In this document: one piece after another, positions 1 to 24,860 of the stretch
Layout of the letters: every line of letters begins with the position of its first letter
Numbering within the stretch: the stretch's first letter is position 1
Source: Sphaerodactylus townsendi
Taxonomy: Eukaryota
Direction of reading: 5' to 3'
Length of the DNA: 64,000 nucleotides
Assembly (NCBI RefSeq): GCF_021028975.2
Contig: NC_059433.1
Span: 88,722,001 to 88,786,000 of the forward strand
Translations under genes and position numbers: made by a program
Notes under the pieces: generated by a model
The model's database searches: none
What the model was told of the DNA's origin: nothing
The model's input: the letters and a program-made list of their open reading frames with translations, nothing else

Positions 1-103
1 CACACTCCAATCAATGGTTCTTGAGCTTGATCAGTTGCTGTCACAGAGAGAGCAAACTCCTTCTGCTTTTCTCGATCAAACCTACGAGTTGTAGTGATAA
101 CCC
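1..103 (-). CDS. Cadherin exon 10, partial (GVITTTRRFDREKQKEFALSVTATDQAQEPLIGV...)
   Basis: tttag acceptor at 104-106; DRE and ATD motifs; truncated by the window edge. Confidence 0.9.
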
Positions 104-3100
104 CTAAACAGAAACAATATTATGTAAGGAAACAGCTGAACCATCTCTGATTTTTACCACACTTTTCACAAGCCAAACATATTGATCACCTCTTACCCCA
201 CACTATTCAGGTTTACTAAAAGCTTTTCCCTCACAGACTCATAGTTTCAAAAAAGGGCTTCTTTTCCTTTCACTCCTTAGTTTTGTTTCTTTTTATGTCT
301 TAATATCTTAGAAGCAGACAAAAACTGACTACATCAGACAAAAATGTGACGAAATATAGAAAACAGTTGACTTGAAATGAATTATGGTGAGTCTTCCATT
401 AGCTGGTGTACAAGAGTGACTAGGAATATGGCTGGTAATCTCTGAGGCCTTCACTTCAATCTTATCCCAGCCACAAATTCACTTAGAGGCCTCAGGCAAG
501 CCATTTTTTCTTGGACCCAGTCTCCCACCCCCAAGGTGGAGATAATAACCATTAATTTTTTCTGGTCCAGTACAACATGGCTACTCTAAGACCCAGACTG
601 CTGGACTAGATCAATCAAGAACGGTTATTTCTACCTGAATCAGAATCTATGCTGAAACCTGGTGAAACGCCATCCCTGTGCATGAGGCCATACTTCACCT
701 CCCCATTCAATCCCAGGTCGGCATCAAAGGCTTCCACCTGCAGGACATAGGTGCCTGGCGGCTGATTTTCCAACACCCAGGTGCTGTCACTGTAGTAAGC
801 ACACTGAAAGAGAAATAATTAGCTAATAACAGGGGATAGTCACAGAAATTACTTATCAACTGATGCATGTATCCATACTTTACAGTGTAAAATATCATGG
901 GACTTAGAAGGGTGTAACTCTGTTCAGGGGGAACTGCCAGACTTCAAATTAGTCACAATGCAAAGCAAGTAGAAGAGATCAGACTTCAAAGTAATAGAGT
1001 TTGGCATATAATTACTGTTTCCCTAAAGATCTTTTTGAGGTTGGCCAAAGCTATACAATTTTGATCTGAAGAGAAACCAGAGTATAACTATACAATTTCA
1101 TATTTCCAGTCGAGGAACACCATATTCCCTACCAACCGACCAAATCGTTACGAACAATTTTACTGCAAGTAAGAAAAGTTGTGGTCTGTCAGCTTACCTC
1201 TGTGAAAACAGGCTTGTTGTTGTTAATGTCATTAATTCCCACAACCACCTCTGCAAAGCTACTGAGAGACCTTGGACCCCCAGAAGAATTGTCATCTATA
1301 GCGGAGATATTCAACACATATTGTGGACCTTTCAGTTTAGGCAAGGGATTTCTGCGGAGTCTGAGGATCCCTGGATTCAGGATGGGAGGAAAAGTGAAAT
1401 TACTGACCACAAAAAGAAAAAGCCAAAATGCTGTATTGGAACATACAGAGATATAACCAGAAGATTGGCAGAAGTTTGATTCAATATTTTTATTTAGGTT
1501 GTAGGGAATTTAACAGATAGTAGCTTTGAGTAGCAGACTTTGCCCTAGCTCTCTGACCCTTTTGGTCTAATTTCTTTGTGGCATCAGAGAGAAAGTTACC
1601 CATAGTGGTGCCAGAATGTCAGCACATCATATCCCTCTTGTTATTCTAACAGGGCAATATATCTTTGAAGGGTTATCCAGTGTTTCTTGGAATATCCTGA
1701 CAGGTTTTCACTCCTTCTTCCCCTTTGGAAGGAGGTCTCTTGATGATTTCTGTTTGCCTGTTACATTTAATCAATATGTACCATTGGCTATGTGGCAATC
1801 ATGATGATGTCATCAATATTATAAGCATGCCAGCATTTCTTTATTCTGGGCCACTGCCAACCCAGGATTTCTTAGGACGCCCAAGGAGCAGACTTGGTTA
1901 ACCAAATACCTTTTTAAGAATAAAGTCTGACTCAGCATATTGCTGTTTGGCTAAGACTCCCTTCAAATTGGTACAAATTTCTTTGTCAGTGTAAGGCCGA
2001 CTGAAGTGTGTTACACTGCAGCCCTACAGTCAAAGCTCTGCTCACAACCTGAGTTCAGTCAGTTTCAGATAGCTGGCTCAAGGCTCCCTCAGCCTTTCAA
2101 CTTTCTGAGGTCGGTAAAATGAGAATCCAGCTTGCTGGGAGTAAAGTTCAGATGACTGGGGGAGGCCGTGACAAACTACCTGTAAACATGGGCTGCCTAG
2201 TAAACATCCAGATGTGATGTCACCCCATGGGTTAGGAATGACCAAGTGCTTGCAAAGGGGACCACCTTTACCTTTATTCCACAAAAGACACAATTCTTTT
2301 GCATGTGAAGGCAGGAACTGCAAATTAAGCAGAAATCACTGATACTTTGGCCATAATCACATGCAGACTGAAAAGCACAAGAAAACTGAGATATAATTAT
2401 AAATCTGCCCTTCGTGGCTAAAAACTGAATACAAGCTGTTCTCTTGTAGCCTGCACAGCCATAGGGAACTGATTAACTTATTATGATTAACACAGTAGTA
2501 GAGAAGAGGAGTCCATTTTCCTGGATGTGCGCTCTAGCACTAAGCCAGGAAGCTACAATCTGGGCAACCATACAAGTGAATTTTTAGGAAGCCTAGAAAC
2601 TATGATTTTGGGGAGTTTGAGACCAAAAAAGGTTTCCCTTTCAAAACAGTTACAAGGAAACAGAATTGCTATGAAGGTTGCTACTTGCTAGCTCATTAAT
2701 GCAGTGCATGAACAGCTCAAAGAACATGCCCATAAAACTACAAATCCCATGGTATGTAAAATCTGTACAAAGTGGCAAAATTTTCCTACACATACACCAA
2801 TGCATATACCAAGTAAAGTGGGCATGTGACAGATTAAAGGAAGAGGCCTACCTCTATGATTCTCCAATTCAAAATTGCCTTCTTCATTACCCCCACTAAT
2901 TATGTACAACACTCCATCTCCGTCAGGATCCTTTGCATGGAGAGCAGCTACTAAAGTCCCAGGATCGGCATCTTCTGAGAGGAAAGTTCTGTAACTGATG
3001 CAGAAATCAGGAATTGCGTGGCATTTACTAGCACGGTTACCCCATGAATCAATGTTACGAAGGCTATTGTGGGTTTCTGGGCTAGCGAGACTCGAGATAC

Positions 3101-6100
3101 AGCAGTGGCCCATATTCTAAATATATTGGGTTGGGACCACAAGAGTCCTTCCACAGATGGAAGGATTTCCTCCAACAGAGTATTACTTTCTCACATCTCC
3201 ATTCCCATCCGCAGAAATGCTCACACAGATCCAAACCTCAGTATGCTTCAACCACTGCATTTAAATGACTTCCATTCCTCTGGCTCATAAAGTCATAGGA
3301 ATGTTCTGCATGAATCCAACTTCTTTTATGCACCTGCGCTGTCTCTCTTGTTTGTTGCTATCACACCTACTCCCAAGGAGCAGAGTTGCATGCATGACTC
3401 TCCATTGTTCATCCTACTGAAACAACAATCCTGTAAGATAGGTTAATATGAGAACGACTGGTCCAAAGTCACATAGCAGTTTGGATCCTAGTGCTCAAAT
3501 GTCATAATGGCTTACAGTATCTGAAGCCAGCCTAACAAAGAAAATATCTTTTTATATGTTTGTTGCTTTTTAAAAAATCACAACCAATTTGTGAAGTGCA
3601 GCTTGAAGAGGAGGAATTTGGATTTATACCCCACTTTCCTCTCCTGTAAGGAGACTCAAGGTGGCTTACAAGCTCCTTTCCTTTCCTCTCCCCACAACAG
3701 ACACCTTGTGAGGTAGGTGGGGCTGAAAGAGTTCCAAAGAACTGTGGCTAGCCCAGGGTCACCCAGCAGGAATGCAGGAGTACTGAAACACATCTAGTTC
3801 ACCAGATAAGCCTCTGCCATTCAGGTGGGGAAGTGGGGAATCAAACCCAGTTCTCCAGATTAGAATCCACCTGCTCTTAACCCAGAGGCTTACCGGGGGG
3901 AAACGGCACCTGGAGACATCTGTTCTTCAGGCGCGCGCCCCTGCTATGCCTGGGGTGAGGTCCAATCTGGCTCCCACCCCCTCCCCCTCCGAGCCAGCAG
4001 CCGGCAGCTCCTCTGTGGAGAACAGAAGCAACTGGAAGGCTCCATGCTGGGGCCTTTGCTTTTATAAACTTGAGGGTAGGCCCACACTCCCCAGAGGGGA
4101 GGACAGACGGGACTGCCGGCTCGGAGCCGGCAGCCTGGAGGGAGTGGGGCTTGGGGGAAGCCGGCAGCTGGGAGGGGGTGAGGCTGGGTGGTTCCTCTGG
4201 CTTCCTTGGCCCCGCCCATTTCAATGATGACATGGGCGGGGCCAAGGGTGCCAGAAAATGACAAGAAGACATCTTCCTGGTCACGTGGGGGGCTGATTTT
4301 GTGCCCCCACGTGACTAGCTCTGTGGCACCCTGTCCCTAGGCAAATACACCACAGTCTTAACCATTACACCACACTGGCTCTCAGCACTTGTACACCAGT
4401 ATGAGGGATGCAGGCTAATTCAGATGCAATACTTTAAGGCCAAGTCCCTATCAACCATTCTTTTGCTTCCAATGAGTACCATTAGTATGGTAAGGCTACT
4501 CAGCATATCTGCTACACAGGAGGACTATATGCTGTTGAACAAAGATCTGCACAAAAGAGGAAGCTCTGCTTACATAGCCTGGGAGAAGACCGGGGCTTCA
4601 TCATTCACATTTGCCATACGAATGCGCACCGAGGCAGTGCCTGTCCGAGGAGGATGCCCTTTGTCTACAGCAATGACCACAAATTCATACATGTGGTTTT
4701 CTCGTTCAAAGTTCAATCGCTGGCTGGAACTGACGGCACCCGTGGGCGTGACAGAAAAATCCTCATTTTGAACAAAATAGAGGACCTCCGAGTTGGAGCC
4801 AGAGTCGCAGTCAGTTGCAAGAACTACAGTCAGGAACATTTGAAAACAGAAATAATTGAGGACAGACTGGCTAGGCTGCACTATTAGATGCTCAAGGCTA
4901 GTCAACCCTCATTAAGTATAAGTGGCCTTAACATATAATCAACTGTCAAGACACACTTTTTTGCAGCAGGATTTGGAAGAGGGTTCATTGCATTCAATTC
5001 AAACTTACTGATTTCTCTCAAATAGGGGGTGGACATAAAACAGTTGAACAGTTAGCTGTTGTGGGTTTTCCGGGCTGTGTGGCCATGGTCTGGTGGATCT
5101 TGTTCCTAACATTTTGCCTGCATCTGTGGCTGGCATCTTCAGAGGTGTATCACAGAGGGAAGTCTGTTACACACTGTGTCCAGTGAGAAGGGAATGTTTT
5201 AGTGGGGTATGGGGAACCAATCAGTAAGTGTTTAAATGGAACTTGCTATGCAAATGTGTGGTTGATAGTATAGTATTGCAGGTGGGGTTTTTCAGTCCAG
5301 GGAGTGATTCACATTTAGCATTCCCTGCAGCAGCAGTATTGGTGAATGAAAATCCTGTGTTTGGGTGAAGTCCATTGTCCATGAAGTTAGCATACCCTTG
5401 ACCTTTGCTCCTGGTGTTCTTAAGTACTGATAGCCAAGCTTTATTAATTTTCAAAATATCTTCTTTCTTATTGAAGTTGTCTTGGTGTTTATGAATTTCA
5501 ATGGCCTACCTGTGCAGTCTGACATAGTAACCTTCTGAATTGTCCAGAAATTCAGTATTTTCAAATAAGATGTTTTGTCCAGTTTTGTTTAAGACATGTT
5601 CTGCAACTGCAGATTTTTTCAGGATGGTTAAGCCAACAGTGTCTTTCGTGCTCCTTAATGGAGGTCTGAATGCTGTATTTTGTGGTTCCCATGTAGACCT
5701 TTTCACAGCTGCAGGGTATAACAGTCTTTGTGTAACAGACTTCCCTCTGTGATACACCTCTGAAGATGCCATATTTCTGTCTCTTGAATGCTTACTCTCT
5801 GTCTACTGAATGCTTATTGCTTAAGATGCCCTGGGAATGTTTCCCTGTACCTGTCTGCCCTTATCTCTGCAGCTGCCGGGGGTGGGTGTGGGTGGGTGTG
5901 AAAGCTGCAGTGTTTTCATCCCCATTCTCACCGGCTGAGGAATGTGTGTACATGTGAGTGTGAAACAGTATCTTCCCGCTTCAGGGGAGCAAAGCGGGGT
6001 TATGGGCATGATGTATCTATGCTGGGGGATTTAATGCTTTGCCTGTTTTAATGTACTCAGTTCTGACAATATAAGTCAACAACTTTCCTATGCTTGCCAT

Positions 6101-9100
6101 CAATAAATGAGAATTCTCCTTTCAAAGTATTGATTCCTCCATTGATCAGGTCTGGGGTTGTGACAGTTTTACAATAGAATGTTTCCAAGGGTTACTTATG
6201 AAAATATGATTCATTATATGACTGACTGGTGCCACTATTATTTACAAGCTTACACTGTTCTGTGTATTTTTGAAATTACACTATCATATGTGCAATATGT
6301 TCTAGAGTCACCTTTATATGGCCTAAGGAACACTGTATTTGTGTACATGTCATGATACACCTATTTTTATTGTTACAACCTCTAGTACTGTTGTACTTAG
6401 TTTTGTCTTTATACAGATGTATCTTGTCCTTATCCACTAAACAAAACAGAGCAGGAGATGTTATATTCACCTTGCAATAAAGATGTGCCTACAGGGATTG
6501 ATTCAAGAATATTTTCTCGACTGTAAATAGACTGCTGAAATTCTGGAGAGCAGTCATTTTCGTCTGTGATGTGAACTATGACCTGCATGACATCGAGAGA
6601 GAGAAGGGAAAAACACACAACACAAAATACAAACAAGTAACAGAAAACGAAAAGACCATGATTGACTTCCAGTGCTTGAAAACATGTAGACTTATGCTAA
6701 GAAGAGAAAAGTAGTTTGTTTGAGAAGTGTAATCCATGGGTACCACATATGGTCTTCCATGCAAAGCAGCCTCTTGCTGCTGTCATCCCAGTCTTGGATG
6801 ACATGCCACATCTTCCTCTTTCGCCATCCTATCACTCTGTCACAGCCAAGAGCTCTCACGCTCACAGCCCAAGGGAGGATGGCAAAGGAGCATTCCCACT
6901 CTTCTTTAAACAGACTAGAGCAGGGGTCTGCAACCTGTGGCTCTCCAGATGTTCATGGACTACAATTTCCACCAGCCCCTGCCAGCATGGCCAAGTGGCA
7001 GAGCTGATGGGAACTGTAGTCCATGAACATCTGGAGAGCCGCAGGTTGTAGACCTCTGGACTAGAGTATAGGTATAAAACTCAGGCCCTCCAGATGTTCA
7101 TGGACTACAATTCCCAGCAGCACCTGCTAGCTTGGCCAATTGGCCCTGCTGGTATGGGCTGATGGGAATCGTAGTTTATGAACACCTGGAGGGCCTGAGT
7201 TTGACAACTATGGACTAGAGGATGCTCCTCCAGCTGCCAGATATTCTCTCCTTGTCAGAACTTGAGCCTGTATTAGGGCCAGAGTAGGAGACAGCCAACT
7301 CTGTCCAAGGAGAGCTTAACAACAATACTGTCCGACTTGCTCATTGATCTGAACAAAGGAGGACTTGTGTGTTCTTTGAAAGAGAATACTTTCTAATTCG
7401 TCCACCATCTTCACCTCCTTTGTCCCAATCTAACAGAACCTAGTTGTCCTTCCCCAGTCTGGGAACGGCAACATGGTCAAAGATGATCTGGTCTCTAGGC
7501 TCCAGCTAGGGGATGTTAGGAACATTTATCCCTTCATTCATGGGAAACTGTATATTTTATCCAAGTTATTAATTTGCACACAAGTCAAATAATGCTTCCT
7601 GGATCTGTTCTTGGCTGTGAAAACAGCATGGGATGAAAGCTGAAAGCCTGTTCCATGTCCGTCCATCCCCAACAATCCTGATCCAAATCAGGCCCTGATA
7701 TCATTTAGGGAATCAGTTCCCAGAAACTGAACTGGACTGATGGCAATGAGAGTTGAGACAGAGGAACCCAGAATCAACTCAGGAAAAAGGTCATTTCTAT
7801 CATTTGACCCATTGTCACTTAGCACAGAATGGATAATCTTCACTCTACCTCAGTTACACTGCTGAGAAAGCTCTCTGCTTCCACTGCTTTCACTAAAAAA
7901 TGGTAGAGGTGATGATTGTTCTCGTAGTCTACAGTATGAATGAGACTTAGCTCTCCAGTCTTTTGTTCCATGTTGAACAGACCACTGGGATTCATCAGCA
8001 AAGTATAAGAAAGAGGCTGACTCTGGAAAGAAACTGCCTCAACAACAGCCACTCTGTATAGGAGAGATTAAGTTACAAAAGTATTGATTATTTTGAGGTA
8101 GGAATAAAAGATAATGGATAAGAACCAGTTTGAATTTAGTATAATTTGTCTGTATAGATTTCATCCCACAACTCTTGCTTTAAATTTTTGAAATGAGATT
8201 TCACCCCACTCAATGGATAGATAAGGACCTTTCAGATGTAAAGTTATATCCATCAACTTTATTCAGCTGCCAGTAGAGCTCTCTGCCAGCATAATCAGAT
8301 TTTCACTGGCTTTAGAGGCTTCTGCTACTGGCAAATAACAGAGGAGAGCTCTGCCATTTGCTAAACAGAGCAGCTGGATAAACCCATTGTGATTTTGCAG
8401 GTACAAAGAGTGCTCATAAAACAAGAGAATATCAATGAAAACATAATAAATACGTAATAATTCCTGCTTATCCGTTCCCCTGTAGATCTTTACATGTTGT
8501 TCCAGATGAAAATTCTAGTCTCCTAGAACAGTTCCTTGTACAGAGGATGACAGTAGTCTAGATCTCCCAAGTTGAAAAGACACCGTCCTTTAGGAGGTTT
8601 TCTGGATTTTAAAAATCCCCTTGGGTTTCTTATCTACACAGCAGGTTTTTAAAAACAGAGCAAGACATTGGTTTATCCTCTCCCTCACACGCTTACATTT
8701 CACCTGCTGGGGTATTTTCTGGAACAAACACACTGTAGGATGTATTAGTGAACTGAGGAGGCCTGGTGCCAGACAAGATGGAGACAAACGCATAAGGGCT
8801 TTTGCTGCCATATTCATCAATGGCCAGAACAGTGACCACATACTCCTGATCAGGAGTTAAAGGCAAGCCCGTCGTCAAGATGACACCTGTGTCTGTATCA
8901 ACATCAAATCGTTCTTCACCACCTGTTGTGTAGAAAGATTAAAAGGAATTATGAAAGAGGCCATCGGATACTACATTTCCCAAATTCCTGCCATTTCTTC
9001 CAATTTTTTAGAGCATATTGTCCAGATCAGTTGTTCTCAACCTTCCTAGTGCCGCGACCCTTTAATACAGTTCCTCGTGTTGTGGTGACCCCCAACCCTA

Positions 9101-12100
9101 ACATTTATCCATTTTACAGATGGAGAACACTGATGCAGAGAGTCTTAGGCAACCCCTGGGGAAGGGTCGTTCGACCCCCAAAGGGGTCCTGACCCACAGG
9201 TTGAGAACCACTGGTCCAGATGCTTTTACTGGCACAGTCCTTATGAGAAGGAAACAGCTACCACCCTTTGTAACAGAACTGCAGAAGAGGGATTTATTAA
9301 ACACATACAGTTTTTGAAACATATTTATTGTCTATCCTGTTCTAACATAGTTTTCTCACATCCAAAGGGTTGCTCATATCAACATCTGTCTAGCATCAGC
9401 AATGGCACATCCCCAAATGTTTCCACATCAGACCCTGCATCTGGATTGAAAAGAACTTAACAATGGATTTTAAGGAGATGCAGCAGGGATGGGTTTAGCC
9501 AAGGCAATTTACAACGCAATCCCGAGAAGGTCTAAGCGAGAATCCTACTTGAAGCTATTAAATAGGCCTCACTTCCAGGAAAACGCTCTCCCGATTGTGC
9601 TGCTAATCTATGCTCCGTACTTCAAATTTCACTATCACTAGCTACCCTCGCAAAAGACTCATTAACATGTAATGTCTATATTAAAGAATGTAAGTATCTT
9701 CTCCTTAAACAAATTTTAATCTTTAAATGTAATTAATGAAGTTGATTTACATATGTCCATTTTAATTTGAACTGTTATGTTTTTGGAATCCTTTTACATA
9801 AGGGGTTTGATACCTGGCAGTGCAATAAGATGTGTCAAAGGATGAGACTTCTCAGGCGGAAAGCTACTCACCAGCAATCAGAGCATATGATATTTCAGCA
9901 CTGGAATTTTCAATGCCACTATAATGGGCCACGAGCTTGTAGACAAGAGTGCCTGCCCGAGCCTCGGGGTCGACACGTGCCAAATAGGGATATGGATACA
10001 TTTCCCAAGATATGGGTTCCTCTTCAACAGCAATAATCACCACACGGCACAAATACCAGTCAGTATCTGAAAGGATCACAGAAAAATGTAAGCTTTCTTT
10101 AAAGAAAAACAAAAAACCAGAAGCTTATGGATACAACGTTAGGGTTTTTAAAAATCAAGGATGAAATTCACAATTTATACTTTAAGGGTTTAACTAAATG
10201 TGACAGATTTATTTGAGAAAACAGAGCACTGAATCAGTAACAGAGCACCACAGCCAGTCACGGTAGACAGGACTTACACAAAAACCTTCAGATTGGGTAT
10301 AAGGCAGCTTCATATTACCACACAGAGATGAGATGGCTCACCGTTGTCCTTCTAAAACTTCCCTTCCCCTTAGGCACTTTCCCCTAAAAGCAAGTCTAAG
10401 TAGGAGAAAAATGGCACAGAGACAATTTCAGAGGAAAAATGAGGGAAGGGTGCTTACCAACTGCCTATTTTTAATCCCCCCCCCCTTTTACACTTGATCA
10501 GTACAACTCACAATTTAACATACAGGTCATGCTGCCTTCGGGTTTTTTAATTTTATATACAGCAAAAGAGACCAGATTAAACTATGCCAGTGATGGCGAA
10601 CCTTTTTGAGACCGAGTGTCCAAACTGCAACCCACTTGTTTATTGCAAAGTGCCAACATGGTAATTTAACCTGAATACTGAGGTTTTAGTTTAGAAAAAG
10701 CAGTTGGCTCCGAGGCGTGGGTTACTCAGGAGTAAGCTTGGTGGTAGTTGGTGGCTTTGGTTTGAAGCAACCGTGCAACTCTTCCAATGGGTGAATCATG
10801 ACCCTAGAAGGGTTTACTCAGAAGCAAGCCCCATTGCCAGCAACCGAGCTTACTCCCAGGTAAAGGATCACAATTTAGTTCTTTGCGTGAAAATCAGTGG
10901 GGTTTAACAGTGCTTAACAGGGTTACCTACACTGCTTCCCCAAAACTAGGTCTTAGGTTTAATGCTAATAATCGAGCCCAGTGGCCCAGGCCAGCCTAGA
11001 TGGGGGAGGGGGGGGCGAACTCTGTTTGCGCGTGGCTACTGAGAGGGCTCTGAGTGCCACCTCTAGCATCCGTGCCATAGGTTCGCCACCACTGAACTAT
11101 GCAATAATACACAAAGGGTAGCAATGAAAATTACAGAGGGGGGGGGGACTATGTGGTAAATAACACACAAAAAACCTTTCCATACCTAAAGGTAAAATAA
11201 ACCTATAAAATAAACCTATAAAATAAACCTATAAAAGCAAATTACATATATGTGCCTGTCATGAAAGAAGCGGGGGAAGAAAAGGAACTGTCCATAGTGA
11301 TGGAGAAACTATGAAATTGACCAGGCAGGGAGGGAACCACAGCAGCAGGTCTGTGGAGCAGAGACTTGATATTGGAGAGGTGAAGGTAACCAGATAACAT
11401 GATAAGTCCAAACTGGCTACAAAATGTGGGACTGAGGAGTAACTTTTTATAGCTGTGTGTTTAGGATGAAGAAGGGAAGGGTTGGCAGTGCTGGAATGTG
11501 GGCCTAAGAAATGTGCAATCTTTTGAAGAAGAGAAGGCTGAAAAGAAACCCTTTGACTATATTTTGGAGGACGGTTTTGCACTGAGAGTCTCTAAAGTGC
11601 TTCCCTGGGGACATCTGGAAGTCAGATATGTATGTACCTATGATCAGGTACTTCTCATTATTGGGGAAGGCCTGGGATCTTCTTGTCTAGTTGTTTAGAT
11701 AGGAAGGACATTTCTAGGATTGCCCATGGTTTATTGTTTTGGATCATTAGTTGACGTCCAATTATCTGGGAAGAGGCTCCAAGATCCTTGGTGGAAATGG
11801 CCCTGGAATCCTTCTTAGGGTGGTTTGCATGACTGACAGTAGAGCTGCCCTACATTCTGTTCTGCCTCTGCCATGACTCACTGCCTTTTGACAGCACTTT
11901 AATTTAGACTCCTTCTATGATTTCTAAGCCCCCACTGAGGTACACGCATACAAAATCAGGAACAAGCTGTAACAAAAATGGGGGTCAACCAGGGGCTGAG
12001 GGCCTTGCATATGGGGCAAAGAATGACAAAGTGTGGCAACACCATAACCAGCCTGTCTAATCCATAATGTGAAAATTGGCCCATAATAGGCCTTGAATTT

Positions 12101-15100
12101 ATTTATGTTTCCTAAAGTTATCTATTCTAATGACAATTTGGATGAAAAAAAAAAACCCTAGCCTTGCACAAAGCCTATTAGCATCTATAGGACAGATGGG
12201 CATCTTTGCAAATTTGGTTTGATATGCAAAATCACCTTAACTTCCAAAGTGATGTTTATATGGAGTACTCCTATGCTAGTATATGCCTGTTCGAAAAAAA
12301 ATTGCAAAAGGGTAACTCTATTGCAGCAAAATAAAACAGTCCAGTGACATCTTAAAGACTGACAAAATTTATTTCAATATTTTGTGAGTTACAGCTCACT
12401 TTTGAAGACTTACAGTTCACCTCTGAAAATCTTTAAGGTGCCACTGACTTTTGTTTTATTTCTCAAACAAGAATAGTTCATACTTCTACTTTAGTGTAAT
12501 CTTTCAAAGCAAGCATCTACAAAATCAACAACTCACGAAAACAAATGCAATGGCTTTGAAAATCCCACCTTTTGCTAACTGCCAAATTATCAGCACAATT
12601 AAAAACAAAATTGCAGCTGCCAAATTTCTCAACTTCTCAAAGAATAATTGCTCAGCAGACTGGATTTATTAATGATTTCTGCATGGGTCAATGTCAAAAC
12701 CAACCGCATCGTGCAGAGTGGTAAGCTGTAGTATTTCACTCCAAGCTTTGCCCATGACCTGAGTTCGATCCTGATGGAAGTCAGTGTGAGGTAGTTTGGA
12801 TCAAGGTTGACTTGGCCTTCCGTTCTTCCAAAGTCAATAAAATAAGAACATAAGAACATAAGAACTAGCCTGCTGGATCAGACCAGAGTCCATCTAGTCC
12901 AGCATTCTGCTACTCACAGTGGCCCACCAGGTGCCTTTGGGAGCTCACATGCAGGATGTGAAAGCAATGGCCTTCTGTTGCTGCTGCTCCTGAGGACCTG
13001 GTCTGCTAAGGCATTTGCAATATGAGATCAAGGAGGATCAAGATTGGTAGCCATAGATTGACTTCTCCTCCATAAATCGAGTAAAATGAGTACCCAGCTG
13101 GGGGTGAAGTGTAGATGACTGGGGAACGCAATGGCAAACCACCCCATAAATATAGCTGCCTAGCAAATGTCATGTGACATCTCCTCCATGAGTCAGTAAT
13201 GACCTGGTGGATGTACCTTTACCTGTACCAATGTCAAAGAGGGCTACTATAAAAGAGGGCTACTAAGAGGGATACTATAAAAACTGACAATTTATCCCTA
13301 ATCCTAAGAATTCTTCTTTAGAAGTAAGTCCCAAGAAGTTTAGTGCGACTCACATCCACATACAGGTACATGAGGATGAAATTTAAAACCCTTCCAAAAT
13401 TCCAATCTTGATCCTCTTTGATCTGAGATTGCAAATGTCTTAGCAGACCAGGTGCTTGGGAGCAGCAGCAGCAGAAGGCCATTGCTTTCACCTCCTGCGT
13501 GTGAGCTCCCAAAGGCATCTGGTGGGCCACTGCAAGTAGCAGAGTGCTGGACTAGATGGACTCTGGTCTGATCCAGCAGGCTCTTTCTTATATTATTATG
13601 TTCTTATTCAAATGAAGCTACTCTTACCGAAGGTCTTGTGATCCAAAAGCACACACCCATTTAATAGAGTAAAACACTATTCAGTATAAACTTGGAATCC
13701 ACATGATTCAGGGGCAGATGCTGCATTATAAAAGCAGTTGTGCTAGGCAGATTCTGGGGTGCTAACAAGTATACCTTAAGGTTGGTGCAACCCTAAACAA
13801 GTGAATGGTATTACACTGTGAAGAATCCCACTTGCACAATTTTTCATCTATATCTCTTATTCAATGTATGTCAATATGGGGCTGTTGGCTGTATGTTTAG
13901 CTAAAATACATCTTAGGCTCAAACCCTCAATCTTCTATTCTAGTATTTCCACATTAAATATATTACCCAGTATGGTTAATCTTTGTTTGGATTCCTACTA
14001 TGTTTGATACAACATAGTTAACTATGCTAAAGCGCTTAGCATTATCTACACATTTAGGTGACAAACAGATATTTTTTACTTTTTAAAAAGTCCATGGATT
14101 TTAAACTGGATTTAAAGCAAATGCCCTACAAGATGAGCGGTAGTGACCTTGTCCTACATGATCACTGGAATTATTTCCACCCCAAGGCCTTTAAGCTTGT
14201 CAATATGTTATTGGGCACAGGACAACAACAAAACAGAGCTCTGCTCAGGGAATCACAGTAAAGATCAGAGAGTTCTTTTGAACACCACACTGGTTGGGGT
14301 TTTATTAATTAAAAACCTGAATATTCATCATCACAAGCTGAGTGAACAAACTTGCACAAAGGCCTGGCCTGCTGCTTTTAATGGCAAATATCATTTGGGG
14401 CAATCCTAGACCCCCATTTGATTCACGCAGATTACAATTAAAGCCATCTGGAACTCTACATGGCATGCTGAGAAAAGAACTAGTTTCACCAAACAGCAAA
14501 AATGAGTTAAGAGATTTCTTGTAAATGTGAGGGTCCAATTTGTTAAGGCTCAGTAACAACCGATCTTTTGGGACAATTGGAAATATTATCTGATTAAACA
14601 GAAAAAATAAATTGATAATTAAAGGCTTTGAAGGTGAAGGATTGTTAAAATAACATCCAATAGGGAAAGAAGTGTGACTTTTATTAGCAGTAGTTCTAAA
14701 GATCCAATTTTACCTTGGTGGTTAAAGAGCAGGTCATTAAAATTTATTTTTAACTGTTAATATTTGATGCAGATGAAACCCAAAGTCCTTATGGAAAATG
14801 TACTTTGGTTTTCTGTGATTCTTTTTTGTGTCCTTTGTGATGTAAAGCTCTTTAAGTGCTAATAATTTTTTTAAAAAACAGAACTGATCCAGGATGGAAA
14901 CCAGCAGAAGATGTTGAAAAATTGTATAAGTTTTCACTTAGAAAAAAAGAATCACACTCACTATGACATAAACTATTATTTCTGAAAGTTCCCCCTCTTG
15001 GAGCAGCAGTGGTGTAGGAGGTTAAGAGCTCATGTATCTAATCTGGAGGAACCGGGTTTGATTCCCAGCTCTGCCGCCTGAGCTGTGGAGGCTTATCTGG

Positions 15101-18100
15101 TGAATTCAGATTAGCCTGTACATTCCCACACACGCCAGCTGGGTGACCTTGGGCTAGTCACAGCTCTTCTGAGCTCTCTCAGCCCCACCCACCTCACAGG
15201 GTGTTTGTTGTGAGGGGGGAAGGGCAAGGAGATTGTAAACCCCTTTGAGTCTCCTGCAGGAGAAAGGGGGNNNNNNNNNNNNNNNNNNNNNNNNNNNNNN
15301 NNNNNNNNNNNNNNNNNNNNNNNNNNNNNNNNNNNNNNNNNNNNNNNNNNNNNNNNNNNNNNNNNNNNNNNNNNNNNNNNNNNNNNNNNNNNNNNNNNNN
15401 NNNNNNNNNNNNNNNNNNNNNNNNNNNNNNNNNNNNNNNNNNNNNNNNNNNNNNNNNNNGGTAGTCGCTCCAAAATGAAACTAATCTTTCTAATATGCAT
15501 TTGCCAAGCAATAGCATGCTGGGAAACATTTTTAACTGGGCGGCCCTGGGCGACCCAACCCAGTTATTTATCTACCAAATTGGCATCCTGTCCTTTCATC
15601 AAAGGGGAGCATATTTGAGATTCTATGATTGTATCTTGATTACACTCCTATGAAGTGGACTAGACCAAGAGAGACTAAGCAGGCCAAGACGCACACTCTG
15701 TGGGCTCCACAGCAGAGGTGGGGGTTGGAACCAAGGTCTCACTACACCAGCCTGGATAAGAAATGGGAGACTTTGTTTCAAATTCTACTTTAGATTAGGG
15801 CTCATATTAATATAATTATCTCAAGCACCTGTGGTTAGACTACATAAAATATTGAACAGATGAAGGCAACAGGTTAAATCTCATTTCATTTTTAAAGGTC
15901 AACAAACTGTGGTTTTTGTGCAAAAAAGCAATGACTTCCCTTAGACTGCAATACTCCAGCAACACTTTGTTGGCCAATGATAATAAAAAGTGCACCTGAA
16001 AGCATGCTTTACTATACTTGTGAATATTTGCACCATACCTTAAGCGCCTTGCCTAGGTCTTTGAAAATGTCTTAGGCATTCAAACCAACTGCCATGTTGC
16101 AAATTGTAAAACACAAGACTGAAGAAAGTCACAGAAATCTGTTATTTTGCACCCAAATTCACATGATGTGCTGCTACATGCATCTTTGTCTCAGCCTTTT
16201 CTGCCTTTGGCAAAAAAAAACAGGAAAGGCTACAAGCAATCAGTCATAAGCCTCCCAGCTTCAGGAAAAACAACAGTTCTGGCAAAGTAGTTCATAATTG
16301 TCCATCATGTAAACTTTGCAATCTTTCTTAGGCAGAGGCCAGGTGGGGAAGGGGCTACTTACCATTTATTCTGCTCAAAGCTGCCCTCCCATGCTATTTT
16401 TCTCCACATCAGGAGAAAATATGCAAAACTGCATCTCTTTCCCTGCCCAGCACAAATACAGCTGGTGGGAGCAACCAAGGGAAAAGGATTATTCATCTCC
16501 TCCCCACCTCAAGGCTGTAGCTTCACTCAACAGCTTTTCATTTGAAAAGAAATTTGATCAAAGTTATACCACTTATACCAGGGCTCTCCAACCTATGGCC
16601 CTCCAGATGTTTATGGACTACATTCCCATCAGCTCTCCCAATTGCCCATGCTGGCAGGAGCTGATGGTAATCGCAGTCCATGAACATCAGGGGGCCATAG
16701 GTTGGAGACCCCTGACATACATTATATTTGAATCTCAATCAATGCTTATCTACGGAGCAGCTGTGCTATATATCTGAATACATTTTTAAAAATAAAATGT
16801 ATTAATTTTCCACAAAACATTTTAACAACAAAAGAAAAAAAATGCACGAAAAAAGAAAATAAGTTTAAAAAAGAAGTGTGAAAGTGGAATTGAGAAGGGG
16901 AGATAGGAAAAAAACAGAGAGGCAGATTCTAAAGCAGAAGGCCATTCACACTTACTGATCCTGGATGTTTTCAGATCTAAGATAATTCTAGCCAATGCAC
17001 CTGTTGAATTTGAAGGCCTACAGAACTTCTGGAGAGTCTAGAGGAGAGGTGTCCAACTGTGGCACTTCAGATGTTCATGGACTACAATTCTCATCAGCCA
17101 CTGATGGGAATTGTAGTTCATGAACATCTGATGCACCAGAGTTGGACCCCGCTGATCTAGAGTGAAACCCAGTCTGCACTGGTGCCAGTAAGCACCCCTT
17201 TCAGTAAAGTGCATCAGGGAGCTTCTGCAAGCTCCAACCAGTCGAATTGCCATGTTCCCCCTCTGAATCCATTTTACTGTGGTTGATCTGCATATCACCA
17301 TTTCCTCCCCAATGGGGACACAGAGCAGCTCACAGCATCACTTCCCTCTCCTCCATTTTATCTTCACAACACCCACCCTGTGAGATAGGTTAGGTTGAGA
17401 TAAAGATTGGCCCAAAGTCACCCTGCAAGCAACCATGACAAAATAGGGATTAAAACTTATGTTCTTAAACTCAAGTCTGTCAGATGCTACTCTGGCCCAT
17501 ATGTGGTAAGAGCCTACCTATGTTCAACACGCTTGTATTTACATTGACTGGCTTCTGACACCCAATTTTCCAATTATTAAATGCCTCAAACTGACATGAC
17601 AAACCATCCCCTCTAGCAAGATAAAAAGCCCTCAACCCTAAGTTTCAATTACAGGCAGCTCTGCTACAGAACTGCTTCATTTTTTTTTAAATGTCCGGCA
17701 TCCAATAACAGATCCCCTGCCTGATATTCATTTGGTGTGAGAACATCTTGCAAACTGTGTTTTAGGGGGTTTTTTTATGCCTCAGCTGACATACATGCAC
17801 ACAATTCAGGAGGATGCATGTTTGTGCATAAGTGGGCTACAATTTTTGCAAGTAATCTCTTTGGGAAGAATTGCTGCAGATTTCAGTGGGGCACTTCAGA
17901 ACCACAGCCTTGTGGCTTGCACAGTATGCAAACACAACCAACTAATTAGTCAAGCTATCAGGTTCATTAATTCTGAGGCTTGTTAGTTGTAATGGTTAGG
18001 TTTTCACGTACTATGGATTGATATTTTTGGTAGTTAGAATGTTGTGTTATTTGATGTTATGTTATTATTATGCTGTAAAATGTAAGATGCTATTGTACTG

Positions 18101-19789
18101 TTACAAATTGTTACGATGCTGTTATGCTGATATGTGTTAGTTGTTTACAAATTGTTACGATGCTGTTATACTGATATGTGTTAGTTGTTAACCTGAGATG
18201 TTGGACCAGTGTTAGGATTTGTTGTAATTGACATTGCTTTATGCCTATTGTATTGATATGCTGTTATTTACTATGTTGTACACCGCCCTGAGCCCTTTGG
18301 GGGAGGGTGGCATACAAATTAAAAGTCAAATCAAATTAAAAAAATTAGAAATGTATTGGTTTATTTAATTGTACTCTCTTTTCTCTCCAACCGAAACCAT
18401 GAGGCATTTTCGCCACCTCCATTTTATCCTAGCAGCAATAATGCTGTAAGGTAGATCAGGCTGAGGGGCCAGACAGAGAGAGTACGACTGGATCATGATC
18501 ACCCAGCAAGCTTCAGTGGCACAAGTGGGGATTTGAACCCAGATACTACTTTTCACCAGGACACCACCCTGGCTTCACAGGGCAATCCTAACGAGAGTTA
18601 GACGATTCTGACTGTAGTGAGGTTAGGTGTGCAACTCTGCGCTCTCAGACCCCCATGAGTATTGTTTTCCCGGCCCTTCCGAAGCGGCCCCATCATGCCC
18701 CCCCCCCCCAACCATACCTTGCCCGTCCACCCGGTGCACCTTGATCTTCACCTCCGTTCGACCTCCTCGCTCCAGCGGCTGGCTGAGGTAGAGCCGCCCC
18801 GAGCCTCTGTCCAGCTCCACGGGGAAGGAGCCCGCAGGGACCGGGGAGACCAGCTCGAACCAGCTGCCGCCCGCCTCCTGGTAGAGGGCGTCCGGGACGG
18901 TGAAGACCGGCTCTCCGGGCGGCGTCCCGACGGGGATGCGCACTTTGTAGAGGGGGCTGGAGGGCGGCAGCGACCGGGCTCTGCGCGGCGACGGAGCGGC
19001 TCCCTCGTGCCGAGCCTCTCGCCTCCTCTGCCTCCTGCGGACGGCCAGGTCCAGGCGCCTGGTGGGGCTGCGCAGGGGCCGGGGGACGCCGTGGTCCTGG
19101 GCTGAGACCCAGAGGCTGAGGCGGCGCAGGCCCAGCAGGGAGCCCACGGCCAGCACCTGTCCGCTGCGCGGCACCACGAAGAGCCGCTGCTGCTGCTGCT
19201 GCCCGTGGCCGGCGCCGTCGGGCCAGGCGCAGTAAGTGAGGCGCGCGTTGGCGCCTTCGTCCGGGTCCGAGGCGCGCAGCCGCGCCACCTCCGAGCCCAG
19301 CGGGGCCAGCTCGTCCACCTCCAGCGGCACGGCCGGGCACGGCGGGAAGCGAGGCCGGTGGTCGTTGCGGTCCAAGACCCGCAGGCGCAGCAGCACCGCC
19401 CGCCGGGGACCCCGCAGGGAGAGCGTGTAGCCCGGCCGCGCCTCCCTGTCCAGCCGCTCCGCCGTGCGTAAAAGCGCCGCGCCCTTGGACGGCCGCAAGT
19501 GCAGCCAGAAGCGAGAGGCGCCGTCGCCCTCCAGCGCCCACTCGCCCAGCGGCTGGCCCGGCCCGAGCAGCAGGAGCCTCGCCAGCGGCACCCTCAGCCC
19601 CCGCACCCACGTCCCCGGCGGGCTGTTCTCGGGCACCTGCCCGTGGAAGCAGAGCGTGCGGGGGGCAGCTTGGAGCCGGGGGCGGCTGCCTTCCGACGGG
19701 GGCCTCGCCCAAGCCCCTACGCCGGCCAGAAGCAAGAGGGGCAGAAGCCGTCGCCGGGCAAGAGCCAGGCCGGGCACCGAGCCCCTCAT
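1..19789 (-). CDS. Type III (non-chordate-type, DN-cadherin/Hz-cadherin-like) classical cadherin, 5' part of gene (exons 1-10; continues off the left edge)
   Basis: Exons 19789-18718, 10066-9872, 8922-8697, 8053-7849, 6582-6471, 4823-4574, 2994-2852, 1370-1198, 803-635 and 103-<1 join in frame through GT-AG sites with no stops. The product has a signal peptide and cadherin motifs (DRE, DxNDxxPxF, AxDxD). Segments SILSGTRPPQF, AVSFQSQPLSYTL, DSGSNSEVLY, NKPVFTEC and TATDQAQEPLIGVC match recalled Drosophila CadN segments (SIVGGKRAPQF, AKSFADREIRYTL, DSGSNAEIEY, NKPVFKDC, KATDQGDPSLEGVC). Confidence 0.9.
635..803 (-). CDS. Cadherin exon 9 (CAYYSDSTWVLENQPPG...FSIDSDS)
   Basis: tttcag acceptor, gtagaa donor, 169 nt, phase 0-1; this frame is not in the ORF track. 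Confidence 0.92.
1198..1370 (-). CDS. Cadherin exon 8 (GILRLRRNP...NDINNNKPVFTE)
   Basis: cag acceptor, gtaagc donor, 173 nt, phase 1-0. Confidence 0.92.
1995..2277 (+). mobile_element. Sauria-type SINE (diverged)
   Basis: Core ...CTCAGCCTTTCAACTTTCTGAGGTCGGTAAAATGAG... and CCTTTACCTTT tail; homologous to copies at 12706 and 47437. Confidence 0.75.
2852..2994 (-). CDS. Cadherin exon 7 (YRTFLSEDADPG...FELENHR)
   Basis: cag acceptor, gtaggc donor, 143 nt, phase 2-1. Confidence 0.92.
3606..4385 (-). mobile_element. tRNA-derived SINE interrupted by a DNA-transposon insertion (3883-4355)
   Basis: Homologous to copies at 15000, 42600 and 57527; the head resumes after the insertion (tcttaaccattacaccacactggc). 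Confidence 0.75.
3883..4355. mobile_element. Non-autonomous hAT-like element (CAGAGGC.TA terminus)
   Basis: 8-bp TSD TCTTAACC at 3875-3882 and 4356-4363; GC-rich interior. Confidence 0.7.
4574..4823 (-). CDS. Cadherin exon 6 (VLATDCDSGSNSEV...NVNDEAPVFSQA)
   Basis: tag acceptor, gtaagc donor, 250 nt, phase 1-2. Confidence 0.93.
5057..5771 (-). mobile_element. Penelope-like retroelement fragment (GIY-YIG endonuclease C-terminus, inverted pseudo-LTR piece)
   Basis: Minus frame KKSAVAEHVLNKTGQNILFENTEFLD...RLHR*AIEIHKHQDNFNKKE; perfect 43-bp inverted repeat at 5131-5173 and 5729-5771. Confidence 0.85.
6471..6582 (-). CDS. Cadherin exon 5 (VIVHITDENDCSPEF...GTSLLQ)
   Basis: cag acceptor, gtgaat donor, 112 nt, phase 0-1. 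Confidence 0.92.
6921..7058. mobile_element. hAT-type MITE
   Basis: TIRs CAGGGGTCTGCAACCTG / CAGGTTGTAGACCTCTG; TSD GACTAGAG at 6913-6920 and 7059-7066. Confidence 0.9.
7067..7212. mobile_element. hAT-type MITE (related subfamily)
   Basis: Long imperfect palindrome; TSD GACTAGAG at 7059-7066 and 7213-7220. Confidence 0.85.
7849..8053 (-). CDS. Cadherin exon 4 (VAVVEAVSF...VDYE...SSVTE)
   Basis: cag acceptor, gtagag donor, 205 nt, phase 2-0. Confidence 0.9.
8697..8922 (-). CDS. Cadherin exon 3 (GGEERFDVDTDTG...VPENTPAGE)
   Basis: cag acceptor, gtaagc donor, 226 nt, phase 1-2. Confidence 0.92.
9028..9213. mobile_element. SPIN-family (URR1-like) non-autonomous hAT MITE
   Basis: CAGTTGTTCTCAACCTTCCTAGTGCCGCGACCCTTTAATACAGTTCCTC...GACCCACAGGTTGAGAACCACTG matches recalled SPIN/URR1 ends; TSD GTCCAGAT on both sides. 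Confidence 0.88.
9872..10066 (-). CDS. Cadherin exon 2 (DTDWYLCRVV...EISYALIAG)
   Basis: tttcag acceptor, gtgagt donor, 195 nt, phase 1-1. Confidence 0.88.
10588..11094. mobile_element. Non-autonomous hAT element (TIR CAGTGATGGCGAACC)
   Basis: TIRs CAGTGATGGCGAACCT / AGGTTCGCCACCACTG; perfect TSD AACTATGC. Confidence 0.9.
11195..11236. repeat. 13-bp tandem repeat (AAAATAAACCTAT) x3
   Basis: Seen directly. Confidence 0.85.
12706..13225 (+). mobile_element. Sauria-type SINE split by a CR1 insertion
   Basis: Head gtgcagagtggtaagctg...gagttcgatcc; the core resumes at 13080 (gtaaaatgagtacccag) and ends in a tacctttacct tail. Confidence 0.8.
12843..13078 (-). mobile_element. CR1 LINE 3' fragment
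   Basis: (AAGAACAT)n tail on plus; near-identical to copies at 13401 and 47085. Confidence 0.8.
13401..13607 (+). mobile_element. CR1 LINE 3' fragment
   Basis: Inverse copy of 12843-13078; ends ...tttcttatattattatgttctta. Confidence 0.8.
15000..15270 (+). mobile_element. tRNA-derived SINE, tail running into the assembly gap
   Basis: A/B-box-like head gtggtgtaggaggttaag...ggtttgattccc; body shared with the other copies. Confidence 0.8.
15271..15459. other. Assembly gap (189 N)
   Basis: Run of N. Confidence 1.
16579..16714. mobile_element. hAT-type MITE (same family as 6921)
   Basis: TIRs CAGGGCTCTCCAACCTATGG / CCATAGGTTGGAGACCCCTG. Confidence 0.8.
17044..17154. mobile_element. hAT-type MITE (same family as 6921)
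   Basis: Palindromic body; TSD GTCTAGAG/ATCTAGAG. Confidence 0.8.
17985..18345 (+). mobile_element. L2-type LINE 3' UTR/tail containing a 44-bp tandem duplication (18101-18188)
   Basis: Ends caccgccctgagccctttgggggagggtggcata..., the same as the L2 3' end at ~46810. Confidence 0.65.
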
Positions 19790-20000
19790 CCTCGCGGCAG
19801 CCGCACCAACTTCTCCGGCCGCCCAACCTCTCCTGCAGCCACTACTTCGTGGCGGCAGGAGCCGACTGCACGTGGAGGGCGGCCCGGACTCAGCCTCTGT
19901 CTTTAGCCCACCAATCGGGAGAGAGCGGGAGGGGCTGACCAGGGGACCCCCGCCCCCGCAGACTCCGTCCTTCAGCCGTCCCCATTGAAAGAGGCGGCGT
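18700..20000 (-). promoter_or_regulatory. CpG island and promoter of the cadherin gene
   Basis: Very GC- and CpG-rich block over exon 1. E-box CACGTG at 19869-19874, CCAAT at 19911-19915 and a GC box near 19950 lie just upstream of the ATG. Confidence 0.75.
18718..19789 (-). CDS. Cadherin exon 1 (signal peptide MRGSVPGLALARRRLLPLLLLAGVGAWA, two cadherin repeats, furin-type RRAR site, start of next repeat)
   Basis: ATG at 19789 is followed by a hydrophobic signal; motifs LDRE, VLDRNDHRPRF, ASDPDEGAN; donor G|gtatgg at 18718 (phase 1). Confidence 0.88.
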
Positions 20001-20333
20001 GGGATGGGGATGGGTGGGAGGTTGAGCTCTGGATGTTCTGGGAGAACGTGCAGGAAGTCGGGTTGCACCAATGCAACAGCCATCGTGTTTTCTGCTTACC
20101 TTTCGCATTGCCAGGCTGCTGCGTATCCATCGTTCTGCTCTGTTTTATCCTCGCACCGGCTAAGCTCGGGTGAGAACACGACTGGCACAAGAGCAAGCCC
20201 ATGCTTTAGTTGCACCAGCACACCCACCTGCCCCAAAACAAAATTTCTGATCCTTCCGCCTTAGGATTTGCAGAGGTTGATATGCGTATCGATTATAATT
20301 TATTTTTCAAATGTGAAGACTATTATGAAGATA

Positions 20334-24695: not shown

Positions 24696-24860
24696 TCAGG
24701 ACTGGAAGGATATCACAGTGTTGATTTTATATACAAAGTAGGACCGGTTCCAGTATACTCGAGTGAAGTAATTCACGTATGGAGAATAGTTCATTTTAAT
24801 CTCCTGACAAAAACGGCCATATTTTGAATAGCCATAGCTGTCACTTTCTTCACAATACAC
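24696..24860 (-). CDS. DPY19L4: DPY19L4 exon 19 coding part to TGA
   Basis: VYCEESD...[19 protein letters not shown]; 165 nt. Confidence 0.95.

What the first reader, a model, noticed from the sequence alone, without database searches (positions are those of the whole stretch)
1..19789. Intact invertebrate-style (type III) giant classical cadherin in a reptile genome
Seen: ten exons join in frame with no disablement, behind a CpG-island promoter. Recalled: the repeats align motif-for-motif with Drosophila DN-cadherin rather than vertebrate type I/II cadherins or protocadherins, including the atypical Ca-linker-less junction SILSGTRPPQF. Established: type III cadherins survive in fish and birds (chicken Hz-cadherin, retinal horizontal cells) and are absent from placental mammals. 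Inference: this is a working squamate member, either the Hz-cadherin orthologue or a little-studied paralogue, at a position (after DPY19L4) where I recall no coding gene in human.
Basis: partly seen in the sequence, partly recalled or inferred. Interest (0 to 1): 0.75.

Follow-up and report, generated by a model that had tools for sequence, protein, structure and literature searches.

The report
Gecko orthologue of chicken Hz-cadherin
Ten in-frame exons encode the front end of a gecko's copy of Hz-cadherin, a giant invertebrate-style cell-adhesion protein already annotated in lizards, birds, frogs and fish, which likely glues retinal nerve cells together; the gene is ordinary, though this vertebrate branch lacks the calcium-binding motifs at two neighbouring joints near its tip.

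Summary
Observation confirmed. Ten GT-AG exons on the minus strand join to 882 residues without a stop, under a CpG island. The protein runs collinear with Drosophila DN-cadherin, including the Ca-free EC2-EC3 joint. It sits among geckos in a species-tree-shaped clade (100/99), apart from a second vertebrate paralogue (AU p 1e-44) and from Fat, Dachsous and Cadherin-23. Full-length orthologues are already annotated in several geckos and other lizards. 'Intact' is shown only for the front: the NC, EGF, LamG and catenin-binding exons lie outside the window, the gene's own database model stops at the NC domain, and no RNA run was available. Side findings: the Hz clade has also lost the Ca-binding motifs at EC1-EC2 (DxND 0 of 113 aligned), unlike the paralogue and invertebrates; platypus keeps a fast-evolving copy with a degenerate catenin tail; no snake orthologue turned up (weak). 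Known gene, low interest.

The parts
18500..20250 (.). CpG island over exon 1 and the likely promoter
   Evidence: GC 0.62-0.77, CpG o/e 0.68-0.90 against 0.29 window-wide; promoter role inferred
18718..19789 (-). Exon 1 (aa 1-357): signal peptide, two prodomain cadherin repeats, RxxR site, most of the degenerate EC1
   Evidence: Pfam Cadherin aa 157-243; most hydrophobic 11-mer at aa 15-25; EC1 folds as a cadherin domain and aligns to DN-cadherin EC1
18974..18985 (-). RRAR (aa 269-272), predicted furin-type cleavage site that would release the prodomain
   Evidence: RxxR just before EC1 in 88 of 99 aligned orthologues; DN-cadherin is cut at the same junction (PMC8325961); cleavage here is inferred
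9872..10066 (-). Exon 2 (aa 358-422): end of EC1, EC1-EC2 linker, start of EC2
   Evidence: alignment
10005..10031 (-). EC1-EC2 linker (aa 370-378) without the DxND calcium motif, a trait of the Hz clade
8697..8922 (-). Exon 3 (aa 423-497): rest of EC2 and the Ca-free EC2-EC3 linker SILSGTRPPQF (8750-8782)
   Evidence: motif in 119 of 120 relatives
7849..8053 (-). Exon 4 (aa 498-566), EC3; the database model P0001 uses an internal acceptor and lacks its first 23 codons
   Evidence: orthologues carry the full exon
6471..6582 (-). Exon 5 (aa 567-603), EC3-EC4 linker with its calcium motif
4574..4823 (-). Exon 6 (aa 604-686), EC4
   Evidence: Pfam E 3.7e-10
2852..2994 (-). Exon 7 (aa 687-734), EC5
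1198..1370 (-). Exon 8 (aa 735-792), EC5 and EC5-EC6 linker
635..803 (-). Exon 9 (aa 793-848), EC6
1..103 (-). Exon 10 (aa 849-882), EC6, cut by the window edge
   Evidence: continues in P0001

Best explanation
These ten exons are the front third of the gecko orthologue of chicken Hz-cadherin, a type III classical cadherin that likely works as a calcium-dependent, like-to-like adhesion protein, probably on retinal horizontal cells as in chick. Shown: the exon chain, the collinear match to DN-cadherin and the orthology. Inferred from DN-cadherin and cHz-cadherin: a signal peptide sends the precursor to the surface; a furin-type protease cuts at RRAR272 and removes a two-repeat prodomain; the mature chain of about 15 repeats binds its own kind on the facing cell through its N-terminal repeats, folding at calcium-free joints to fit the cleft; downstream NC, EGF and LamG domains, a membrane span and a tail that binds p120 and beta-catenin (seen in gecko orthologues, outside this window) tie it to actin. 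In this clade EC1-EC2 as well as EC2-EC3 lacks calcium motifs, so the tip is predicted to be more flexible than in DN-cadherin.
For: Chain of 882 aa, 0 stops. Best single aligned stretch in the PDB is DN-cadherin: exon 3, 27.1 bits against 17.0 for CELSR1; gecko orthologue P0002, 160.9 bits over residues 3-295 against 64.6. The AlphaFold model of aa 273-498 aligns to DN-cadherin residues 438-647 at Z 15.3-15.9 (rmsd 10.6-13.3, 185-189 aligned), next entry Z 13.4. Chicken cHz-cadherin is 78% identical over aa 358-882, paralogue B 53-58%. Tree: window with three geckos 100/99, Hz clade 100/99; AU test rejects grouping with paralogue B, p 1e-44. Gecko orthologues carry NC (PF24811), EGF, two LamG and the cytoplasmic PF01049. 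[quoted passage not shown] DN-cadherin prodomain removal, adhesive unit EC1-EC11 and bending sites (PMC8325961).
Against: The C-terminal exons were not seen for this genome: none is held, P0001 ends at the start of the NC domain with a tail unlike its relatives, and no C-terminal half attributable to it was among 117 hits. Three relatives are flagged LOW QUALITY PROTEIN (Euleptes, Elgaria, Rhinatrema). By whole-sequence E-value CELSR1 outranks DN-cadherin, because scores are summed over repeats. Exon 1 differences in two related organisms are 4 synonymous and 5 non-synonymous codons each, too few to show strong constraint. The in vivo role of cHz-cadherin is undetermined, and expression in geckos is untested.
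Confidence: 0.85

Rival explanations
1. It is the Hz-cadherin orthologue, but in this species it is broken or truncated further downstream, so it makes a secreted fragment or nothing.
For: The own model P0001 ends at aa 1941 at the NC start and lacks a 22-aa block present in relatives. No matching C-terminal half was found. The gecko Euleptes model is flagged LOW QUALITY.
Against: P0001's end looks like read-through into an intron (inference), and the same model mis-splices exon 4, where the window shows an intact exon. Split models also occur in species whose relatives are full-length (Varanus, Lerista against Tiliqua). Four other geckos are full-length. No stop or frameshift in the listed coding differences of related organisms.
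Confidence: 0.1
2. It is the second, little-studied vertebrate type III paralogue and not the Hz-cadherin orthologue.
For: A second paralogue exists in turkey and frogs.
Against: 53-58% identity to it against 78% to cHz-cadherin; separate clades at 100/99; AU p 1e-44; it keeps the EC1-EC2 calcium motifs that the window lacks.
Confidence: 0.02
3. It is a Fat, Dachsous, CELSR or Cadherin-23-like gene that resembles DN-cadherin only through shared repeats.
For: Fat-sized and similar long cadherins fill most of the 150 best library hits by summed score; CELSR1 tops the PDB lists by summed score.
Against: Best single alignments of aa 358-882: 394-558 bits for the 6 type III-like representatives, 305 for a Trichoplax cadherin, 211 or less for the other 143. 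The 9 Fat-, Dachsous- or Cadherin-23-like and unnamed rows are split from type III at 100/99. No CELSR row was in the tree.
Confidence: 0.01

Closest known systems
Chicken cHz-cadherin (XP_046766540.1; Tanabe et al. 2004, seen only as cited in PMC3216324)
   Same: Orthologue by tree; 78% identical over aa 358-882; same Ca-free EC2-EC3 linker and same loss of EC1-EC2 calcium motifs.
   Different: The prodomain is more divergent in chicken. Expression in horizontal cells is known for chick, untested in gecko.
Squamate 'neural-cadherin-like' models (Heteronotia XP_060100312.1, Paroedura XP_077207979.1, Gekko japonicus XP_015265307.1, Eublepharis P0008) and fish si:dkey-22o22.2-named proteins
   Same: Same gene: the three gecko models aligned are 87-88% identical over aa 358-882; all four gecko models carry the full type III domain order.
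   Different: Nothing of substance; these are automatic annotations without functional study in the papers I could search.
Drosophila DN-cadherin (PDB 3UBF, 3UBG, 3UBH)
   Same: Two-repeat prodomain with a basic cleavage site, collinear EC1-EC4, Ca-free EC2-EC3 linker.
   Different: DN-cadherin keeps DxND and DxD at EC1-EC2 (alignment); the Hz clade has lost them.
Second vertebrate type III paralogue (Discoglossus KAM4614092.1, Rana XP_040185436.1, turkey P0004)
   Same: Same architecture (Discoglossus) and same Ca-free EC2-EC3 linker.
   Different: Separate clade; 53-58% identical; keeps LDRE, DxND and DxD at EC1-EC2.

Membership tests
Type III classical cadherin | 14 to 17 cadherin repeats (definition from PMC5473995) | tested here: met
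   The window holds two prodomain repeats and EC1 to part of EC6; the gene's own model P0001 has 15 Pfam cadherin stretches. The later repeats rest on that model, not on window DNA.
Type III classical cadherin | NC (non-chordate classical cadherin) domain after the repeats | tested here: inconclusive
   P0001 ends where NC begins; PF24811 is present in four gecko orthologues.
Type III classical cadherin | Three EGF-like and two laminin-G domains | not testable with these tools
   Outside the window and no genome held; EGF and two LamG are present in gecko orthologues.
Type III classical cadherin | Single membrane span and catenin-binding cytoplasmic tail | not testable with these tools
   Outside the window; PF01049 scores 63-73 bits in four gecko orthologues, tail alignment.
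Type III classical cadherin | Collinear homology with DN-cadherin, including the Ca-free EC2-EC3 linker | tested here: met
   linker motif in 119 of 120 relatives.
Type III classical cadherin | Groups with amphioxus, hemichordate and lamprey type III cadherins | tested here: met
   99/99 for the 14 type III rows. Full-length DN-cadherin was not in the tree.
cHz-cadherin orthologues | One clade with chicken cHz-cadherin that follows the species tree | tested here: met
cHz-cadherin orthologues | Expression in retinal horizontal cells | not testable with these tools
   No RNA holder listed.
Type I/II classical cadherins | Five cadherin repeats | tested here: not met
   At least 8 repeats in the window and 15 Pfam stretches in P0001.
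Fat, Dachsous, Cadherin-23 | Collinear repeat-by-repeat homology and grouping with these families | tested here: not met
   Best single alignments 211 bits or less against 394-558 for type III; split at 100/99.
CELSR/Flamingo | Nine repeats and a seven-pass membrane domain (definition recalled) | tested here: not met
   15 Pfam cadherin stretches in P0001; orthologues end in a classical cadherin tail. No CELSR row was in the tree.

The most novel reading that the evidence does not exclude
On the jawed-vertebrate stem, Hz-cadherin lost the calcium sites at EC1-EC2 next to the ancient Ca-free EC2-EC3 joint, giving a double hinge at the adhesive tip that DN-cadherin and the second vertebrate paralogue lack. 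The gene then decayed in lineages that simplified the outer retina: fast evolution and a degenerate catenin tail in platypus, loss in therian mammals and, independently, in snakes. It would be a wiring molecule for horizontal-cell circuits that mammals and snakes gave up. The motif loss is well supported (about 0.85); loss in snakes and the link to retinal wiring are not.
Probability: 0.2. Interest if true: 0.55.

Novelty: already known. Interest (0 to 1): 0.2.

Why it matters
As a gene call it adds little: it is one more squamate copy of an annotated gene. The family is poorly studied, though. The in vivo role of cHz-cadherin was undetermined in the 2011 review, and vertebrate type III cadherins are the surviving ancestral form of classical cadherins. 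Three side results give testable leads: a second calcium-free joint peculiar to the Hz clade, which bears on how giant cadherins fold into a cell-cell cleft; a platypus copy, which contradicts 'nonmammalian only' and would place the mammalian loss after the monotreme split; and a possible parallel loss in snakes.

Tried and rejected
No whole genome is held, so the left-hand exons could not be read. No RNA holder listed; this says nothing on expression. A search for a separate C-terminal half gave no long high-identity gecko piece among 117 hits; unnamed short pieces at 84-94% cover 8-10% of the query each and cannot be tied to this genome. Bending at EC1-EC2 from AlphaFold: the window model differs from straight two-repeat structures (rmsd mostly 11-13), but a control model of the paralogue, which keeps its calcium motifs, differs almost as much (mostly 10-12), so the models do not test flexibility. 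P0013 (sturgeon) and P0059 (sparrow) first looked like the paralogue from low identity: the tree puts P0013 in the Hz clade, and P0059 is 72% identical over the window region. The ESM Atlas gave only 'cadherin' and 'Dpy19 family'. No Pfam hit in 105 of the 186 ORFs of 45 aa or more beyond position 46000 (all 93 minus-strand, 12 of 93 plus-strand), so no further neighbour was named. Snake absence is weak: none is named among the best 120 of 1631 hits, the 117 hits or the 44 listed members of ten squamate clusters; but platypus too was missing because its cluster representative is a poorer model. The same limit holds for the lack of marsupial or placental hits. Three look-ups in earlier findings returned nothing. 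Jin et al. 2012 and Hulpiau and van Roy 2011 are not held.
Full report
Observation. The ten exons are real. With boundaries 19789-18718, 10066-9872, 8922-8697, 8053-7849, 6582-6471, 4823-4574, 2994-2852, 1370-1198, 803-635 and 103-1 on the minus strand, all nine introns are GT-AG and the product is 882 residues without a stop. A first guess at four boundaries gave 18 stops, and 0 of 20,000 random chains were stop-free. Seven of the ten exons hit Pfam Cadherin. A CpG island covers exon 1 and about 450 bases upstream. A DPY19-family gene lies upstream on the same strand (9 of 13 candidate ORFs); which DPY19 paralogue it is, and what lies at the human locus, I could not test. Contigs of four DNA runs (three organisms, two studies; X1 and X3 may be the source itself) cover exon 1: its only listed indel is in frame, while indels of 1, 2, 2, 10 and 17 bases lie outside it. 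The listed coding differences give 6 synonymous and 6 non-synonymous codons in X4, 5 and 6 in X5, and no stop. Outside exon 1 only 40 of about 1000 differences were shown, so this is a partial count.

What it is. The protein has a hydrophobic leader (aa 15-25), two prodomain repeats, RRAR at 269-272, then EC1 to part of EC6 in DN-cadherin numbering. DN-cadherin gives the best single aligned stretch in the PDB, both for window exon 3 (27.1 against 17.0 bits) and for the gecko orthologue P0002 (160.9 against 64.6); CELSR1 ranks first only by summed score. SILSGTRPPQF aligns to the DN-cadherin EC2-EC3 joint, described as calcium-free in PMC8325961. An AlphaFold model of aa 273-498 (pLDDT 84, pTM 0.59) shows two beta-sandwich domains and aligns best to DN-cadherin residues 438-647 (Z 15.3-15.9, next 13.4). 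EC1, which Pfam misses, is therefore a degenerate cadherin repeat.

Which gene. The best 120 of 1631 hits run from geckos (83-85%) through lizards, turtles, birds, amphibians and fish, and include chicken cHz-cadherin at 75%. A 29-row tree of aa 358-882 (10 of 39 prepared rows left out: seven Hz-clade rows to save time, the poorer platypus model and two Fat-like rows) puts the window with three geckos (100/99) in a clade that follows the species tree and holds cHz-cadherin (100/99). A second vertebrate paralogue (turkey, two frogs) is its sister; lamprey, amphioxus and hemichordate lie outside. A 24-row tree splits nine Fat-, Dachsous- or Cadherin-23-like and unnamed rows from type III at 100/99 and rejects grouping the window with the paralogue (p 1e-44). 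Both trees used LG+G4 without the mixture model.

Is it intact? For the window, yes. Beyond it I have only the database model P0001: 1941 aa, stop-free, 15 Pfam cadherin stretches, collinear with full-length geckos except for gaps of 23 and 22 residues, ending where the NC domain starts. The 23-residue gap is an internal acceptor in exon 4; the window and all orthologues shown have the full exon. The odd end is likely read-through into an intron (inference). Four gecko orthologues carry NC, EGF, two LamG and the catenin-binding tail. No genome and no RNA run were available, so the C-terminal exons and expression remain untested.

How it likely works. From DN-cadherin (PMC8325961, passages and section 15): the prodomain is cut off at a furin-type site, EC1-EC11 form a calcium-dependent homophilic adhesive unit, and bends let the long chain fit a junction. 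RxxR precedes EC1 in 88 of 99 aligned orthologues. From chick (PMC3216324, passages and section 4): cHz-cadherin is expressed in retinal horizontal cells and aggregates cultured cells; its role in vivo was undetermined. Transfer of both to the gecko gene is inference.

Side finding 1, a second calcium-free joint. Of 120 proteins (119 plus platypus), 113 aligned at both sites, one of them to a wrong repeat; none has DxND at the EC1-EC2 linker, and the following DxD survives in three sharks only. EC1's D[RYF]E motif is absent in all 99 aligned, and PE/SE remains in 21. The next three linkers keep their motifs in 117, 118 and 114 of 120. Among 11 paralogue and outgroup proteins, DxND is present in 8 of 8 and DxD in 10 of 10 that aligned, LDRE in 4 of 4 shown, and DN-cadherin keeps DxND and DxD. 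This is one ancient event, not 113. The AlphaFold control could not show added bending. I found no mention in the passages of the four papers I read among the eight that hold 'type III cadherin' or 'Hz-cadherin'. Jin et al. 2012, which predicted such linkers widely, is not held, so it may be in print.

Side finding 2, mammals and snakes. Platypus has an annotated orthologue (XP_039767908.1), sister to sauropsids at 98/98 on a branch of 0.41. It keeps NC, EGF and LamG, but its tail scores 18.5 bits on PF01049, below the cut-off of 24 and far below the geckos' 63-73. The review's 'nonmammalian vertebrates' is thus too narrow; searches found no paper with all the terms. No therian or snake orthologue was named, but absence from these lists is weak (see Tried and rejected). 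Snakes, geckos, crocodilians and mammals share losses of light-related genes (bioRxiv 10.1101/127654, passages; it does not mention cadherins). Geckos and alligator keep Hz-cadherin, which argues against a simple link to night life. PMC13005343 (passages) has no 'cadherin' in its main text. Four supplementary files of the chick retina atlas PMC7837701 hold none of five names for the gene; its main text and full expression tables were not seen. PMC5473995 (passages) gave the family definition and PMC4949263 (passages) only a citation.

Verdict. Interest 0.2. The boldest reading, a double-hinged Hz-cadherin lost in parallel in therians and snakes, has probability about 0.2 and would deserve about 0.55.

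Noticed in passing
window 10005-10031 and relatives P0007-P0124: The Hz clade lacks the LDRE, DxND and (except three sharks) DxD calcium motifs at EC1-EC2, which the paralogue, lamprey, amphioxus and hemichordate keep.
   Followed up: yes
P0294 (platypus XP_039767908.1): A mammal keeps an Hz-cadherin orthologue on a long branch with a degenerate catenin-binding tail; the model lacks the N-terminus.
   Followed up: partly
hit lists: No snake-named orthologue although many lizards are present and a snake protein of another family appears; a possible loss in snakes, weakly supported.
   Followed up: partly
window 8053-7985: The database model P0001 uses an internal in-frame acceptor and drops 23 residues of EC3; annotation error or alternative splicing.
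   Followed up: partly
window 24700-41000, minus strand: DPY19-family gene upstream of the cadherin on the same strand; ORFs near 45270-45540 may hold further exons. Paralogue identity untested.
   Followed up: partly
window 19185-19202: Short poly-glutamine run in the prodomain, one codon longer in runs X1 and X3 than in the window.
   Followed up: partly
window 20792-21217 (-), 35788-36573 (+), 5221-5802 (-): ORFs that look like ends of retroelement proteins (recalled likeness); the first hits Pfam ALKBH8_N at E 2e-12, likely a repeat-derived match, the others nothing.
   Followed up: partly
window 15271-15459: Assembly gap of 189 N in intron 1, beside a high-copy repeat; no exon is missing across it.
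   Followed up: yes
P0128, P0132, P0004: A second vertebrate type III paralogue in frogs and turkey; Rana temporaria and Lithobates have several models on one chromosome. Whether geckos keep it was not examined.
   Followed up: partly
P0225 (Trichoplax XP_002112057.1): A placozoan cadherin aligns over 498 residues at 305 bits and branches next to the type III clade.
   Followed up: no
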